Shown piece after piece: positions 1 to 63,000 of a stretch of 64,000 bases of DNA. A program made the position numbers. Every line of letters starts with the position of its first letter. The stretch's first letter is position 1. Origin of the DNA: Carcharhinus amblyrhynchos (Eukaryota); assembly GCA_965287045.1 (NCBI GenBank), contig OZ336888.1, positions 15,872,001 through 15,936,000 of the forward strand, read 5' to 3'.

Positions 1-3000
1 CTGATATTCATGTTGAACAATTTGTAATTGAATACTCTGCAGCATTTTTTTTGTTAGCTTGGAGCAGCACCAACTAGGATGATGATAAATCCCATTGTTT
101 CTGAAACTAGGAGTAATGATGGGTGTATTCGTTCACATTGTCACAATAATGTTTCAGTACCTTCAATAATTAGCTTTCACAAGCGAATAACATTTGAAAC
201 TTGTGAAATTTAACATTGTGTACTGAGAGCAGGTCAATGATTTTGTTGTTCCTTCAGGCAACATGGCTGAGGAATTGTTCTGAAGGGAAAGCTCAGAATT
301 TGAGTGAGGGAATTATTGCTGATCTGCGAGATAGTTTATGGGTCATCTTTGATCCTTACTGAGGTGCATGGAATTCCTGGTTAAGAATTTAAGAACATAA
401 GAACATAAGAAATAGGAGCAGGAGTAGGCCATCTAGCCCCTCGAGCCTGCCCCGCCATTCAAAAAGATCATGGCTGATCTGTCGTGGCTCAGTTCCACAT
501 TCCAGCCCTCTCCCCATAACCCTTAATCCTCTCTCTTATCAAAAACCCATCAACCCGCGTCTTAAAAATATTTAGCGAGGCAGCCTCCACCACTTCAACG
601 GGCAGAGAATTCCAGAGATTCACCACCCTTTGAGTGAAGAAGTCCCTCCTCAACTCCGTTCTAAACTGCCCCCCCTTTATCTTGAGGCTGTGCCCTCTAG
701 TCCTACTGTCCTTTCTGAGCAGGAAGAGCCTCTCCACCTCTATCCTATCCATCCCATTCATAAGTTCAGTGGGAGTTTAAGATAATGATGCTTATAATTA
801 AACATTTCCTTGGAAATGAATTGCAGTAGTGGTGAATAAATACTGTTCAAATTTCTGTGCTGTTTAGGGCCGACAAGAACTGTAGGAACTGGAGGACCAA
901 TCACTTCAGAGACCACTGTTGGTGGTGAGTTTTGCTTTCATCATACCTGCCACGTTAAATTAATTTGTGTGCTTTGTGGACTAATGGTGTTTCATGTTAT
1001 CTCTGCTCCCTAGGGCCAATGGCAATGACTGTGACAGGTACACTTCCTGTTTCTGAGAGCAGAATTACTGGTGAGCAGAACTTCTTTCATGTTAGAAGCT
1101 GTTGTTAGTATCATGCAATTTGTGATTTTTAACGCTACGATATGTCTACCGTTACGTTGGACCTGCACCAAGCAGCAGGGCAGTATCTGAGATAGTTTCC
1201 GAAACTGTGATTAACAATGATTGAATATATTCTCAGTGCCATACGATGTTTGTGCTGTCAAAGTGTCCCAGGCAAGGGACATGTTGTTGGTGCGTCATTG
1301 CAGGACACTGTATTTTCAGTCCGTTCAGATTGAAAGGTTTGAATGTGTACCAGTTGCGATGTTCCATATTGCTTTTGGTAAGCATCTTCTTTTTCAAATG
1401 TTGTTGTTTTTGCTTTGTCCTGATGGAAAAATGGTCAACAGATAGGAATGAATGATTGCTTTATTTCAGTTTTCGTACACATTTGCTTCTCAATGCAGAA
1501 ACTGTAAAGACATGCATATTGGTGTTTCACTTTCCTCACTGCTAATTGAGGCATCTTCATGATGATACTGACAGAGCTTTTCACTGAATGGAAGTTGGAA
1601 TATTAAGTGCTAACTGATAGAGTAGATCTCTTGCATTATCAATTGTAACATTCAGAAGAGGACAGTTTTATTGAATATGATAATTAATCATAATACAAGT
1701 TGTGTTACGTGTCCCTGAAGTCAGCTTGAGACTGAATGGCGGCATTTGTGAATTTAAAAAGACATTAATAAGGCAGATTGTCCAAACTTTAATGAGCACT
1801 GGTAGATCCTGGTATTGACATTCTGCATTGCTCTTTTGGAAGTGTAAATTGAAATTTAAAATTTGATATATTTACATTTGCATTTTGAAGAGCTAGGATT
1901 TTGGTGCTATTGATGTTAGATCGCTAAATCCATTTATTCGCATGACTCATGATAGGTAAGGCAACAGGAGATTCGAGATGTGCAGTAATACGTGGTTTGT
2001 CTATAACCGAAAGGCCGAACGGAAAGTATCTCATTTGTAGACTTGCAGAATGACAGAGTCTTTTATTTTGGTTTGGCAGTATGGTAGACCTTGCCAGTGC
2101 AATTTATATGCAGACAGACTGTCATAATTATTCCTTCCAACAGAATAAATTCAAAGCAGTAAATTTCAATACCATAACGAATTCCTGATTGGAAATGCCA
2201 CTTGTTCAGTGGGAGTTTTGAAAGAAACACTTTATTCTTTTGAAAAGAAATGATTTAGTCACCGTTGATATATCACTTTTATTGGCAAATAACATCCAAA
2301 TAATTTTGAGAAAATTTAGTGCCGCATTTACTGACTCTCTGTTAAATTTTTTGTAATTTCCTGAAAAGTAACTGGTTTTTGCGGGCAACTTGGTCGAGGA
2401 CCTGTTGTGCATGGCAAGCGCCGCATTTGTGGGTGGGAATGATCAATTGTAGTTTGCGTTCCAATATTTTCCTTTTCTCTTCCAATTTGGAAACATTTGC
2501 CACTTGAGAGTTTGACTGACATAATGATGCTAAGGGGAATAAAAAAATCTTGGGAAACAATTGCAGCAGTAATGAATAAATATTCTATGCAATGTCCACT
2601 TTTCTTTAGGGCCGACACCATTCATTGGAACTGGAAGACCTACAACTTCAGAGACTACTGTCAGTGGTGAGTATTGTTTTTTGCATCCTCGTCACCTGCA
2701 ATTAATTTATTTGATTGGCATTTTAATATTGTTTAAAATTTTCGCTACTACATAGGGCTAACAGCAATGACTCCATCAGGTGTACCAATTGTCCCTGAGA
2801 CAGCAATTACTGGTGAGTAGATCTCCTTACACATTATAACCTAATATTAAGATTGAGCGATTTGTAATTTAATACCATGGAGCATTTTTTCTGTTACCTT
2901 GGATGGTAGTAACTCCCATTGTTTCTGAAATGAAGAGTAATGATGGGTGTATTCATTCACATTGTCAGAATAGTATTTCAGAAACTATAATAATTAGCTT

Positions 3001-60000: not shown

Positions 60001-63000
60001 TGTCAGTCGAGTTGTTCCATATTGTCTTTGTTAAGCATCTTCTTGGTTGAATGTCCTTATTTTTGCTTTGTGCTGAATGTGAAATGGTCAACAGACAGGA
60101 ATTAGTGATTGCTTTATTGCAGTTTTTGTACACATTTGCTTGTCAGTGCACAAACTGTAAATACATGCATGTTGGTGTTTCACTTGCCTCGGTGCTAATT
60201 GATACATATTCATGTTATCACCGAAGGAGCTTTTCCGTGAATGGAAATTGGAATAGTAAATGCTACCTGATAGAGTAGATGCCTTGCATTATCAATTATA
60301 ATGTTTTATAATCAATTATAATCAATTATAATGGTGCAGCAGGTGATCAAGAAGGCGAATGGGATGCTGGCCTTTATAGCGAGGGGGATAGAATATAAAA
60401 GCAGGGAGGTCTTGCTGCGACTGTACAGGGCAGTGGTAAGGCCGCAGCTGGAGTACTGTGTGCCGTTTTGGTTGCCGCACTAGCGCAAGGATATTTTGGC
60501 CTTGGAGGGAGTGCAGAGGAGGTTCACTAGGCTGATACCGGAGATGAGGGGGTTGGACTATGAAGAGAGGCTGAATAGACTGGGTCTGTACTCGTTGGAG
60601 TTTAGAAGGATGAGGGGGGATCTTATAGAGACGTATAAGATAATGAAGGGGATGGATAGGGTAGAGGTAGAGAGATTCTTCCTGCTCAGAAAGGACAGCA
60701 GGACTAGAGGGCACAGCCTCAAGATAAGGGAGGGCAGTTTAGAACAGAGTTGAGGAGGAACTTCTTCACTCAAAGGGTGGTGAATCTCTGGAATTCTCTG
60801 CCCATTGAAGTGGTGGAGACTACCTCGCTAACAATATTTAAGACACGGGTAGGTAGATTTTTGGTAGGCAAGGGAATTAAGGGTTATGGGGAGAAAGCGG
60901 GAAAGTGGAACTGAGCCACTACAGATCAGCCATGATCTTATTGAATGGCGGGACAGGCTCGAAGGGCTAGATGGCCTACTCCTGCTCCTATTTCTTATGT
61001 TCTCATGTTCTTACGTTCTTACGAAAGTGGGCAGTGTTATTGAACGTGATTATTGATCATAATGTAGGTTGTGCCCGTGATATCCATGAATGGCAGCATT
61101 TATGAATTTAAAAAGATAGTAAGGCAGACTGTCCAAACGTTAATGAGCACTGGAAGATCCTGGTTTTGACATTCTGCATTGCTGTTTTGGAAGCACGTAT
61201 TGTAATTTAAAATTTAACATATTTTCATTTGCATTTTGCAGAGCTAGGATTTTGGTGCTATTGATTTTAGATCACTAAATGCATTTATTCACGTGAATGA
61301 TGATTGGTAAGGAATCTGGAGATTTGAGATGTACAATAATGCGTGGTTTGTCTGTGACTGAAAAGCCTACTGGAAAGCTCCAGATTTGTGGCCTTGCAGA
61401 ACGACAGAACCTTTTATTTTGATTTGGCAGTATGATAGACCTTGCTGGTGAAATTTATGTGCAGATGGACAGACATGATTATTCCTTCCAACAAAATAAA
61501 TTCAAAGCAGTAAATTTCAATATCATAATGAGTTCCTCATCAGAAATGCCGCTTTTTCAGTGGGATTTTTGAAAGACAAACTTTATTCTTTGGAAAACAA
61601 ATGATTTAGTTAGCTTTAAAATTTCACTTTTACTGGCAAATAACATCCAAATCATTTTGAGAGAATTTAATGCTACATTTGTTGACTTGATGTTGAATTT
61701 TTTTGTAATTGCCTGAAAAGTAGCTGGTTTTTGAAAGCAACTTGGTAAAGCAACTGTTCTGAATGGTAGGTGCTGCATTTGTGGAAGGGAATGTTTAATT
61801 TTATAGTTTGCATTTGGATATTTTCCTTTTCCCTTCGCAATGTGGAACCATTTGCCACTTGAGGCTTTGACTGACATCGTGATGCTAAGATGAACAAAAA
61901 ATTACGGGAAACAATTGCAGCAGTAATGAATAAATATTCTGTACAAATTCTGCTTTTCCTTAGGGCCGACACCATTCACAGGAACTAGAAGACCTACAAC
62001 TTCAGAGACTACTGTCAGCGGTGAGTATTGTTTTTGGCACTCTCGTGTCCTGAAATTAATTTATTTGATGGGGCGATTAATATTGTTTCAAATTTGCCCC
62101 ACGACTTAGGGCCAACGGCAATGACTCCATCAGGTGTACCAACTGTTCCTGAGACAGCAATTACTGGTGAGTAGATCTCCTTACACATTATAGCCTGATA
62201 TTAATTTCAAGCTATTTGTAATTTAACACTCTGCAGCATTTTTTTCCTGTTACCTTAAACCAGCATGAACTGGAATGATAGTAAATCCCATTGTTTCTGA
62301 AACGAAGAGTAATGATGTATGTATTCATTCACATTGTCACAATAGTATTTCAAAACCTCGAATAATTAGTTTTCAAAAGCAAACAACATTTGAAACTTAT
62401 GAAATTTAATGTTGCGTTTGCTGAGAGCTGGACAATTATATTGTTATTCCTTTAGTCAACATGCCTGAGGAATTATTCTGGAGGGAAACCTCAGAATTTG
62501 AGTGAGAGAATTATTACTGATCTGCGAGATTGTTTATGGGTCATGTTTGATCCGTACTGAGGTGTAAGCAATACCTGGTTAAGAATTTGACTAAGATAAT
62601 GATACTTATAGTTAAACATTTCCTTGGAAATGAATTGCAGTCGTGGTGAATAAATACTCTGTCCAAATGTCTGTGCTGTTTAGGGCCATCAAGAACTGCA
62701 GGAACTGGAGGACCAACCACTTCAGAGACCACCGTCAGTGGTGAGTTTCAGTTTATCGTACTCACCACATGAAATTAATTCTTGTGCTTCCTGGACGAAT
62801 GTTATTTCATATTATTTGTGCTCCTAGGCCCAGTGGCAATGACTGTGACAGGTACACTTCCTGTTTCTGAGAGCAGAATTACTGGTGAGCAGAGCTTCTT
62901 TCACATTAAAAGTTGCTATTGGTTTTGTGCTGTTTGCGGTTTTTAGCTCAACCGTACATCTACAGTTACGTTGGACCTACACGCGGGAGCAGGGCAGTCA

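What the first reader, a model, noticed from the sequence alone, without database searches (positions are those of the whole stretch)
868..62884. All cassettes are symmetric phase 1-1: a plug-and-play array able to give combinatorial length isoforms
Seen: every cassette length is a multiple of 3 (57, 48 or 33 nt) with the same phase, so any exon can join any downstream exon in frame. Established: symmetric repeat-exon arrays such as the titin PEVK region and the Xenopus integumentary mucin cassettes are alternatively spliced to tune polymer length. Inference: this locus can vary its length at both RNA level (skipping) and DNA level (unequal crossover) without frameshifting.
Basis: partly seen in the sequence, partly recalled or inferred. 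Interest (0 to 1): 0.65.

Follow-up and report, generated by a model that had tools for sequence, protein, structure and literature searches.

The report
Mini-exon array encoding a mucin-like domain
This stretch, probably from a shark or ray genome, holds 92 tiny related exons that would together encode a long threonine-rich, mucin-like protein segment, a gene layout already known from a few other mucin genes.

Summary
The window carries 92 homologous mini-exon cassettes on the + strand, from 868-924 to 62828-62884: 90 of 57 nt, one of 48 and one of 33. All are phase 1-1. In that frame 0 of 92 have a stop or frameshift.

They behave as coding exons. Synonymous variants are enriched only in that frame (53 of 119 against 38.3 expected). 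All 7 one-base indel events lie in the 89-nt introns, none in exons. AG is kept in 87 of 92 and GT in 90 of 92.

The peptides are 39.8% Ser+Thr and 14.3% Pro, with no Cys, Asn or Asp. That is a PTS (mucin-type) domain. A LINE fragment points to a cartilaginous fish, not human.

Length change at DNA level is supported by 8.9-kb and 7.9-kb block duplications at 98.7% and 99.5% identity. Seven cassettes have lost a splice dinucleotide, so they must be skipped or use another site.

Regulated combinatorial splicing is untested. Symmetric phase is a precondition for any duplicated-exon array, not evidence of skipping.

The layout matches chicken Muc13 and schistosome SmPoMuc, so this is a new member of a known kind.

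The parts
868..924 (+). type A cassette, 57 nt
1014..1070 (+). type B cassette, 57 nt
2610..2666 (+). type C cassette, 57 nt
2756..2812 (+). type D cassette, 57 nt
3303..3359 (+). type A cassette, 57 nt
3448..3504 (+). type B cassette, 57 nt
3967..4023 (+). type C cassette, 57 nt
4113..4169 (+). type D cassette, 57 nt
4672..4728 (+). type A cassette, 57 nt
4818..4874 (+). type B cassette, 57 nt
6972..7028 (+). type A cassette, 57 nt
7118..7174 (+). type B cassette, 57 nt; acceptor CG not AG (internal AG would give 48 nt, 7127-7174)
8701..8757 (+). type C cassette, 57 nt
8847..8903 (+). type D cassette, 57 nt
9799..9855 (+). type A cassette, 57 nt
9945..10001 (+). type B cassette, 57 nt
11541..11597 (+). 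type C cassette, 57 nt
11687..11743 (+). type D cassette, 57 nt
12234..12290 (+). type A cassette, 57 nt
12379..12435 (+). type B cassette, 57 nt
12898..12954 (+). type C cassette, 57 nt
13044..13100 (+). type D cassette, 57 nt
13603..13659 (+). type A cassette, 57 nt
13749..13805 (+). type B cassette, 57 nt
15903..15959 (+). type A cassette, 57 nt
16050..16106 (+). type B cassette, 57 nt
17632..17688 (+). type C cassette, 57 nt
17778..17834 (+). type D cassette, 57 nt
18346..18402 (+). type A cassette, 57 nt
18492..18548 (+). type B cassette, 57 nt
20062..20118 (+). type C cassette, 57 nt
20208..20264 (+). type D cassette, 57 nt
20778..20834 (+). type A cassette, 57 nt
20924..20980 (+). type B cassette, 57 nt
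21532..21564 (+). type A cassette, 33 nt (24-nt in-frame deletion)
21654..21710 (+). type B cassette, 57 nt
24775..24831 (+). type C cassette, 57 nt; weak donor GTCTGT
24921..24977 (+). type D cassette, 57 nt
25466..25522 (+). type A cassette, 57 nt
25612..25668 (+). type B cassette, 57 nt
27831..27887 (+). type C cassette, 57 nt
27977..28033 (+). type D cassette, 57 nt; acceptor GG not AG (internal AG would give 48 nt, 27986-28033)
28541..28588 (+). type A cassette, 48 nt (9-nt in-frame deletion); acceptor CG not AG
28678..28734 (+). type B cassette, 57 nt
30905..30961 (+). type A cassette, 57 nt
31051..31107 (+). type B cassette, 57 nt
32618..32674 (+). type C cassette, 57 nt
32764..32820 (+). 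type D cassette, 57 nt
33329..33385 (+). type A cassette, 57 nt
33475..33531 (+). type B cassette, 57 nt
35706..35762 (+). type C cassette, 57 nt
35851..35907 (+). type D cassette, 57 nt; donor TT not GT
36419..36475 (+). type A cassette, 57 nt
36565..36621 (+). type B cassette, 57 nt
38139..38195 (+). type C cassette, 57 nt
38285..38341 (+). type D cassette, 57 nt
38857..38913 (+). type A cassette, 57 nt
39003..39059 (+). type B cassette, 57 nt
41170..41226 (+). type A cassette, 57 nt
41316..41372 (+). type B cassette, 57 nt
42923..42979 (+). type C cassette, 57 nt; weak donor GTGGGT
43069..43125 (+). type D cassette, 57 nt; donor AT not GT
44519..44575 (+). type A cassette, 57 nt
44664..44720 (+). 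type B cassette, 57 nt
46078..46134 (+). type C cassette, 57 nt
46224..46280 (+). type D cassette, 57 nt; weak donor GTGGGT
46795..46851 (+). type A cassette, 57 nt
46940..46996 (+). type B cassette, 57 nt
48521..48577 (+). type C cassette, 57 nt
48667..48723 (+). type D cassette, 57 nt; weak donor GTGGGT
49238..49294 (+). type A cassette, 57 nt; last base A (junction codon AGN instead of GGN)
49384..49440 (+). type B cassette, 57 nt
50951..51007 (+). type C cassette, 57 nt; acceptor CG not AG (internal AG would give 39 nt, 50969-51007)
51097..51153 (+). type D cassette, 57 nt
51661..51717 (+). type A cassette, 57 nt
51806..51862 (+). type B cassette, 57 nt
54103..54159 (+). type C cassette, 57 nt
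54249..54305 (+). type D cassette, 57 nt
54823..54879 (+). type A cassette, 57 nt
54967..55023 (+). type B cassette, 57 nt
56382..56438 (+). type C cassette, 57 nt
56528..56584 (+). type D cassette, 57 nt; weak donor GTGGGT
57099..57155 (+). type A cassette, 57 nt; last base A (junction codon AGN instead of GGN)
57245..57301 (+). type B cassette, 57 nt
58812..58868 (+). type C cassette, 57 nt; acceptor CG not AG (internal AG would give 39 nt, 58830-58868)
58958..59014 (+). type D cassette, 57 nt
59522..59578 (+). type A cassette, 57 nt
59667..59723 (+). type B cassette, 57 nt; weak donor GTGGGC
61964..62020 (+). type C cassette, 57 nt
62110..62166 (+). type D cassette, 57 nt
62684..62740 (+). 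type A cassette, 57 nt
62828..62884 (+). type B cassette, 57 nt
1..18252 (+). Recent block duplication, period 8,931 nt. Positions 1-9321 align to 8932-18252 at 98.66% identity. Each copy carries 14 cassettes.
48209..64000 (+). Recent block duplication, period 7,861 nt. Positions 48209-56140 align to 56070-64000 at 99.48% identity. It runs to the window's end.

Best explanation
The window lies wholly inside one large gene on the + strand of a vertebrate genome, most likely a cartilaginous fish. It shows an array of at least 92 mini-exons that encode the Pro/Thr/Ser-rich (PTS, mucin-type) region of a big glycoprotein.

The basic genomic unit is about 2.44 kb and carries four 57-nt exons: A, an 89-nt intron, B, about 1.5 kb, C, an 89-nt intron, D, then about 0.5 kb. 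Each exon adds 19 residues, about 40% of them Ser or Thr. Inferred: these are O-glycosylated to make an extended, hydrated bottle-brush.

Every exon starts with G and, in 90 of 92, ends with G. Each junction therefore rebuilds a glycine codon, and the reading frame does not depend on which cassettes are present.

Shown: the cassettes are under coding constraint. Shown: the array has grown and shrunk by in-register duplication and deletion of blocks with breakpoints in the homologous introns, which looks like unequal crossover. Shown: seven cassettes have lost a splice dinucleotide without any cost to the frame.

Inferred: symmetric phase 1-1 is what allowed the array to expand at all. Most intact cassettes, which have near-consensus splice sites, are probably included constitutively, and the crippled ones are skipped.

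Whether the cell also regulates skipping is open. Which mucin or proteoglycan gene this is could not be determined.
For: Catalogue: 92 cassettes, all on the + strand, 92 of 92 with 3n length, 0 of 92 with a stop in the phase-1 frame.

Splice signals: AG in 87 of 92 and GT in 90 of 92. Donors are GTGAGT in 56, GTGAGC in 26 and GTAAGT in 2. A branch-point-like YTRAY lies 21-45 nt upstream of the acceptor in 40 of 46 short introns, and TAAT sits at a fixed distance in 39 of 46.

Coding constraint:
- Within-type dN/dS is 0.72 (A), 0.31 (B), 0.37 (C) and 0.69 (D). Exon diversity is below at least one flank in all four types and below both in A and B.
- 53 of 119 distinct variants are synonymous against 38.3 expected with a matched mutation spectrum (p = 0.003). 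The other two frames give 37 against 37.7 and 17 against 29.3.
- There are 7 distinct 1-nt indel events in 4,084 nt of short intron against 0 in 5,211 nt of exon (p = 0.003). The only two exon indels are 24 and 9 nt.
- In the two recent block duplicates, exons differ at 6 of 1,482 sites and the rest at 139 of 15,760 (p = 0.053).

Composition of the 1,645 whole-codon residues: T 29.8%, P 14.3%, S 10.0%, G 9.7%, with no Cys, Asn or Asp.

DNA-level dynamics: block repeats at 98.66% and 99.48% identity, other units at 80-88%, and nearest-relative offsets of 2.4, 5.5, 7.9, 8.5, 8.9 and 10.3 kb.

Strand: T exceeds A in 16 of 16 bins and G exceeds C in 13 of 16 bins on the + strand. As I recall, that is the usual bias of a transcribed sense strand.

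Host: the best named relatives of a CR1-like reverse-transcriptase tail (26091-26804, - strand) are skates, rays, sharks and a chimaera at 56-72% identity. Birds and turtles are at about 45-56%.

Against: No transcript, EST or protein evidence was available, so expression is inferred from constraint only.

No homologous protein was found.
- The unspliced frame 15869-16162 (exon A, a 90-nt intron and exon B in one frame) gave nothing among 178 candidates of 171-2000 residues.
- In 1.84 billion representatives it gave 3 hits. On inspection I judge them spurious: the best one matches the end of exon A plus intron-encoded residues, and none of the three is a PTS repeat protein.
- Only 38 of the 97 query residues are exon-encoded, so these searches are weak.

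No signal peptide, VWD, SEA, EGF, CysD or transmembrane exon is in the window. Pfam gave 0 families at gathering score in 187 translated stretches: the 4 cassettes as 20-codon stretches and 183 open frames. 'Mucin' therefore rests on composition alone.

dN/dS of about 0.7 in types A and D is only mild constraint.

The antisense frame is also open in 92 of 92 cassettes, although that strand has no splice signals at the cassette borders.

The two near-identical blocks could in part be assembly errors.
Confidence: 0.75

Rival explanations
1. One reading: the array is a regulated plug-and-play system. Cells skip cassettes or blocks in many combinations, so one animal makes a family of length isoforms tuned by tissue or state.
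For: Uniform phase 1-1 and an invariant Gly junction make every combination legal.

Seven cassettes without AG or GT must already be skipped or trimmed. Six further donors depart from the three common near-consensus forms (GTGGGT in 4, GTGGGC in 1, GTCTGT in 1).

Other phase-symmetric arrays do this. [quoted passage not shown] Titin I-band exons are skipped (PMC3575840, abstract in the listing). FIM-C.1 is another case (PMC7177656, passage). Lang et al. raised the same idea for chicken Muc13 (PMC1552070).
Against: Nothing in the DNA distinguishes regulated skipping from constitutive inclusion.

84 of 92 donors are near-consensus, and the 89-nt introns with a fixed branch-like motif look built for efficient pairwise splicing.

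Symmetry is required for array growth in any case, so it carries no information about splicing choice.
Confidence: 0.3
2. The array is a decaying relic: a pseudogene or a no-longer-used part of a gene. Its exon-like look is simply inherited from recent duplication.
For: 7 of 92 cassettes have lost a splice dinucleotide. dN/dS is about 0.7 in types A and D. No protein relative was found.
Against: Units are 80-88% identical overall. Even so there are no stops or frameshifts in 92 cassettes, synonymous variants are enriched only in the coding frame, and 1-nt indels are confined to introns. A dead array at this divergence should carry frameshifts.
Confidence: 0.07
3. The cassettes are real exons, but the product is not a mucin in function. 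It could be a disordered spacer or an elastic or glycosaminoglycan-bearing segment of another matrix or cell-surface protein.
For: No mucin-defining globular domain lies in the window. Phase 1-1 arrays with Gly at junctions are also the design of tropoelastin.
Against: Composition is classic PTS: S+T 39.8%, P 14.3%, K 0.3%, no Cys. It is unlike elastin or titin PEVK, which as I recall are Gly/Val/Ala/Lys-rich and Pro/Glu/Val/Lys-rich.
Confidence: 0.12
4. Part of the copy number is an assembly artefact. The 8.9-kb and 7.9-kb twin blocks are two haplotypes or mis-joined reads of one block.
For: The twins are 98.66% and 99.48% identical. Such arrays are hard to assemble, and the SmPoMuc authors report that repeat conservation prevented assembly of that region (PMC2576457, passage).
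Against: The twins differ at 105 and 40 substitutions plus 5 and 1 indel events. They sit in tandem in register with the older units. The other 60 or so cassettes do not depend on them.
Confidence: 0.1

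Closest known systems
Chicken (and zebrafish) Muc13: PTS domain encoded by multiple exons (Lang, Hansson & Samuelsson 2006, PMC1552070; section 8 read in full)
   Same: Each PTS repeat unit is its own small exon (20 residues there, 19 here). The exons are nearly identical to one another. The authors made the same proposal, that length could be set by splicing as well as by recombination.
   Different: At least 12 exons were reported there, against 92 here with neither end of the array reached. Here four cassette types alternate, paired by 89-nt introns. 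Orthology is untested, because no SEA, EGF or TM exons and no neighbouring HEG gene are in the window. I could not see the chicken repeat sequence, since figures are not held.
Schistosoma mansoni polymorphic mucins, SmPoMuc (Roger et al. 2008, PMC2576457; passages)
   Same: A small exon (27 bp) sits in a conserved genomic repeat of about 1 kb that is iterated in tandem, up to about 20 times. The intron parts are highly conserved (over 94%). Recombination between repeats generates length variants of a mucin.
   Different: It is an invertebrate multigene family with one exon type per unit and microsatellite spacers. The reported alternative splicing lies in the C-terminal region, not among the repeat exons. 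There is no sequence relationship.
Tropoelastin genes (PMC12554196; passages)
   Same: All exon borders are phase 1:1, and two exon classes alternate. [quoted passage not shown]
   Different: The composition and function differ. As I recall, tropoelastin has hydrophobic and Lys cross-linking domains. Here Thr is 30% and Lys 0.3%. Tropoelastin has a few dozen unique exons, not a homogeneous tandem array.
Titin PEVK / I-band exon array (PMC3575840; abstract in the search listing only)
   Same: A long run of small in-frame exons encodes a disordered segment whose length is set by exon skipping.
   Different: It is an intracellular spring protein with a different composition, and RBM20-dependent regulation is known. 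None of this could be tested here.
Xenopus integumentary mucins FIM-B.1 / FIM-C.1 (PMC7177656; passages)
   Same: They are vertebrate skin mucins described as polymorphic. [quoted passage not shown]
   Different: The exon structure of the FIM repeats was not in the text I could read. The primary papers from 1990-1992 are not in the library. FIM-B.1 has VWD domains and FIM-C.1 has TFF domains; neither is seen in this window.

Membership tests
Mucin-type (PTS) domain, in the functional sense | Long region rich in Pro, Thr and Ser, built of tandem repeats | tested here: met
   S+T is 39.8% and S+T+P is 54.2% over 1,645 residues, in 92 repeats of 19 residues.
Mucin-type (PTS) domain, in the functional sense | Dense O-glycosylation of the Ser/Thr residues | not testable with these tools
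   This needs glycoproteomics. It is only inferred from composition.
Mucin-type (PTS) domain, in the functional sense | Secreted or membrane-anchored protein (signal peptide) | not testable with these tools
   The window holds only internal cassettes. The array runs off both ends: the block repeats reach position 1 and position 64000.
Gel-forming mucins (MUC2/5AC/5B/6/19 type) | VWD-C8-TIL units, CysD and cystine-knot domains flanking or interrupting the PTS region (architecture as given in PMC4948705) | tested here: inconclusive
   Pfam gave 0 families at gathering score in 183 open frames. One search covered 146 of the 218 + strand frames of at least 48 codons. I left out 59 that lie in the near-identical twin blocks and 13 already scanned. 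The gene's ends are outside the window.
Muc13-type transmembrane mucin with multi-exon PTS | One PTS repeat per exon | tested here: met
   Each 19-residue repeat is one exon with its own AG and GT. Compare PMC1552070.
Muc13-type transmembrane mucin with multi-exon PTS | SEA, EGF and transmembrane domains, with a HEG gene next door | tested here: inconclusive
   None is in the window. The flanks are not available.
Tropoelastin | All exon borders phase 1:1 | tested here: met
   92 of 92 cassettes are phase 1-1.
Tropoelastin | Alternating hydrophobic (Gly/Val/Pro/Ala) and Lys-containing cross-linking domains (recalled; partly in PMC12554196) | tested here: not met
   Lys is 0.3%, Thr 29.8% and Ala 5.9%. 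The locus is therefore not filed as elastin.
Alternatively spliced cassette-exon array | Transcripts from one gene that differ in which cassettes they contain | not testable with these tools
   No RNA data were available. Only the permissive feature, symmetric phase, is shown.

The most novel reading that the evidence does not exclude
This is a lineage-specific giant mucin of cartilaginous fishes whose O-glycosylated backbone is assembled from more than 100 interchangeable 19-residue mini-exons. Block-wise or stochastic skipping would give each cell, or each tissue, a polydisperse set of polymer lengths. This would be an RNA-level equivalent of the VNTR length polymorphism of mammalian mucins, operating within one individual, and it would be the largest such array described.
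Probability: 0.25. Interest if true: 0.6.

Novelty: new member of a known kind. Interest (0 to 1): 0.35.

Why it matters
In the best-known mucins the PTS region is one giant exon, and its length varies only between alleles. A PTS region split into about a hundred frame-neutral exons gives a genome two further ways to change polymer length: whole-cassette gain or loss by unequal crossover in long homologous introns, and exon skipping.

Lang et al. suggested that the multi-exon layout may be the ancestral vertebrate design (PMC1552070). A large, constrained array in a cartilaginous fish fits that idea and offers a place to test it.

In practice, gene predictors and short-read assemblies tend to miss or collapse such arrays. 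That may be why no predicted protein resembling it turned up.

Tried and rejected
- Exon-by-exon protein search. The four cassette types, sent as 20-codon contiguous stretches, gave 0 Pfam families even at E up to 10.
- Unspliced open frame. The frame 15869-16162 (exon A, its 90-nt intron, exon B) gave no hit among 171-2000-residue proteins. It gave 3 hits in the representative library, which I rejected after reading them. It had no Pfam family.
- Joined model. A full-length similarity search therefore remains undone and the gene is unnamed.
- Interspersed domain exons. Pfam on 6, 35 and 146 open frames found nothing at gathering score. The only row was MGP3_C at E = 0.029, below its cut-off.
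- Rfam at gathering thresholds: 0 matches.
- Tandem Repeats Finder did not see the array, because the units exceed its 500-nt period. It found only a 40-nt repeat at 33973-34225.
- Sequence similarity against physical distance. The correlation is weak for A-B units (rho 0.078; 242 of 2000 permutations as high) and modest for C-D units (rho 0.214; 15 of 2000). Growth was by multi-unit blocks, not by neighbour-by-neighbour spread.
- First internal AG. In the 5 acceptor-less cassettes the first internal AG is in frame in 5 of 5. The same holds for most intact B, C and D copies, so it follows from composition and I draw nothing from it.
- MUC19/Smgc. I recalled that this gene has repeated small exons. 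The search found no open text describing that, so I do not use it.
- Literature on shark or ray mucin gene structure: one search (24 papers holding at least 4 of the 5 terms, one listed) turned up nothing relevant. The claim that this locus is not in print rests only.
- Structure and complex prediction were not used. A disordered repeat gives nothing to fold.

Full report
**What is there.** The window has no N and 37-42% G+C. A scan for AG...GT-bounded open segments, and then a blastn self-search seeded with the first four cassettes and aligned with MAFFT, give 92 homologous cassettes. All are on the + strand, from 868-924 to 62828-62884, exactly the finding's bounds.

They fall into four types:
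- A, 26 copies, for example 3303-3359, internal codons PTTTAGTGGPTTSETTVS.
- B, 26 copies, for example 1014-1070, PMAMTVTGTLPVSESRIT.
- C, 20 copies, for example 46078-46134, PTPFTGTGRPTTSETTVS.
- D, 20 copies, for example 32764-32820, PTAMTPSGVPTVPETAIT.

A resembles C and B resembles D. Cassettes come in pairs, A-B or C-D, separated by a short intron: 89 nt in 36, 88 in 7, 87 in 2 and 90 in 1, out of 46. The 45 long introns measure 462-3,064 nt. The basic unit A-B-C-D is about 2.44 kb.

**The observation.** By homology 90 cassettes are 57 nt. One is 33 nt (21532-21564, a 24-nt deletion) and one is 48 nt (28541-28588, a 9-nt deletion). All 92 are multiples of three. The first base is G in 92 of 92 and the last is G in 90 of 92, so the intron always splits a codon after its first base. 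That is phase 1-1, and any join rebuilds GGN (Gly). After 49238-49294 and 57099-57155, which end in A, the junction codon would be AGN.

In this frame 0 of 92 cassettes have a stop. In the other two + frames 62 and 41 of 92 do.

Two corrections apply. First, 7 of 92 cassettes lack a canonical dinucleotide. Five acceptors are lost, at 7118, 27977, 28541, 50951 and 58812. Two donors are lost, at 35851-35907 and 43069-43125. The same logic gives 39 nt at 50969-51007 and 58830-58868.

**Is it more than chance?** The shared length is inherited, so 92 copies are not 92 trials. Retention is the real test.
- (a) The 46 short introns (4,084 nt) carry 7 distinct one-base indel events. The exons (5,211 nt) carry none, and their only two indels are 24 and 9 nt. 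The chance that all 7 land in introns is 0.003.
- (b) Of 119 distinct variants relative to the type consensus, 53 are synonymous against 38.3 expected with a matched mutation spectrum (p = 0.003). The same count in the other two frames gives 37 against 37.7 and 17 against 29.3.
- (c) No variant creates a stop, against 3.3 expected with uniform mutation or 1.5 with a matched spectrum.
- (d) Within-type dN/dS is 0.31 (B), 0.37 (C), 0.69 (D) and 0.72 (A). Exon diversity is below at least one flank in every type.
- (e) Between the recent twin blocks, exons differ at 6 of 1,482 sites and the rest at 139 of 15,760 (p = 0.053).

Splice signals are kept: AG in 87 of 92 and GT in 90 of 92. Donors are GTGAGT in 56, GTGAGC in 26 and GTAAGT in 2. 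A YTRAY motif lies 21-45 nt before the acceptor in 40 of 46 short introns. These are real exons under purifying selection, strongest on type B.

**What it encodes.** Summed exon by exon, the 1,645 whole-codon residues are T 29.8%, P 14.3%, S 10.0%, G 9.7%, V 7.7% and E 5.3%, with no Cys, Asn or Asp. This is a PTS, mucin-type composition. The 85 cassettes with both AG and GT add up to 4,821 nt, or 1,607 residues.

The array continues beyond both ends of the window, because the block repeats reach positions 1 and 64000. No other kind of exon is visible. Pfam finds nothing at gathering score in 183 open frames or in the four cassette types. Rfam finds nothing.

**Host.** The long introns carry fragments of a CR1-like LINE in both orientations. 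The longest, 26091-26804 on the - strand, has as its best named relatives proteins of skates, rays, sharks and a chimaera at 56-72% identity. Birds and turtles follow at about 45-56%. The protein atlas says Eukaryota, commonest Chordata. I therefore take the contig for a cartilaginous fish, not for human. The closer unnamed records were not traced.

**Which gene?** This is not resolved. One contiguous, unspliced open frame happens to span exon A, a 90-nt intron and exon B (15869-16162). It found nothing convincing. A full-length similarity search therefore remains to be done.

**How it most likely works.**
- Shown: this is a constrained array of frame-neutral PTS exons.
- Shown: its length has changed at DNA level in whole blocks. 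Positions 1-9321 match 8932-18252 at 98.66%, and 48209-56140 match 56070-64000 at 99.48%. Older in-register relationships occur at offsets of about 2.4, 5.5, 8.5 and 10.3 kb. In five places an A-B pair follows an A-B pair directly.
- Shown: individual cassettes lose splice sites without harming the frame. For example 7118 has CG where its twin 16050 has AG, and 59667 has GTGGGC where its twin 51806 has GTGAGC.
- Inferred: unequal crossover in the long, 80-88% identical introns is the mechanism.
- Inferred: phase symmetry is the precondition that allowed such growth.
- Inferred: the product is a heavily O-glycosylated extended polymer.

Combinatorial isoforms by skipping are permitted but not evidenced. 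Symmetric phase is expected of any duplicated-exon array, and most splice sites here are strong.

**Comparison with what is known.**
[quoted passage not shown] It has at least 12 exons of 20 residues, and the same splicing idea was already raised for it (PMC1552070).
- The schistosome SmPoMuc genes iterate a 27-bp exon within a conserved genomic repeat of about 1 kb, up to about 20 times (PMC2576457).
- Tropoelastin is the best mechanistic analogue. All its borders are phase 1:1 and cassette-like alternative splicing is documented (PMC12554196). The composition test for elastin fails here.
- Membership in the gel-forming or Muc13 families cannot be decided from this window.

**Verdict.** It is a new and unusually large member of a known kind of gene architecture, of moderate interest.

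Noticed in passing
window 489-767 (-), 9420-9698 (-), 21844-22095 (-), 26091-26804 (-), 41693-41764 (-), 43507-44156 (+), 52467-53053 (+), 60328-60914 (+): Fragments of a CR1-like LINE (C-terminal part of the reverse-transcriptase ORF) lie only in the long introns, in both orientations. The copy at 489-767 was already present before the 8.9-kb block duplicated, because its twin sits at 9420-9698. The best named relatives are cartilaginous-fish proteins.
   Followed up: partly
window 33695-34540, tandem repeat 33973-34225: A C-rich 40-nt tandem repeat (6.2 copies, 73% matches) sits inside a long low-complexity stretch that is open for 242 codons on the + strand and has no Pfam family. It lies in the 2.2-kb intron between 33531 and 35706. 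Its nature is unknown.
   Followed up: no
window 6041-6700, 14972-15631, 30163-30624: An element of about 660 nt with an internal direct repeat of about 150 nt occurs only in three of the five long introns that join a B cassette directly to the next A cassette (no C-D pair between). It may mark the deletion or insertion that created those units.
   Followed up: partly
window 15869-16162: The only 90-nt short intron (15960-16049) puts exon A, the intron and exon B in one uninterrupted 97-codon frame. Intron retention here would stay in frame. Its twin intron at 7029-7117 is 89 nt.
   Followed up: partly
all 92 cassettes: One antisense frame is also free of stops in 92 of 92 cassettes. There are no AG/GT signals at the cassette borders on that strand, so I take this as a by-product of codon composition.
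   Followed up: partly
46 short introns, about 30 nt upstream of each B or D cassette: TAAT sits at a fixed distance from the acceptor in 39 of 46 short introns, with its third letter, an A, 30 nt from the intron end. The short introns vary in length by only 87-90 nt, although their sequences differ between A-B and C-D pairs. This suggests selection on intron length or on the branch site.
   Followed up: partly
whole window, 4-kb bins: T exceeds A on the + strand in 16 of 16 bins and G exceeds C in 13 of 16. This strand asymmetry runs through introns and repeats alike.
   Followed up: no
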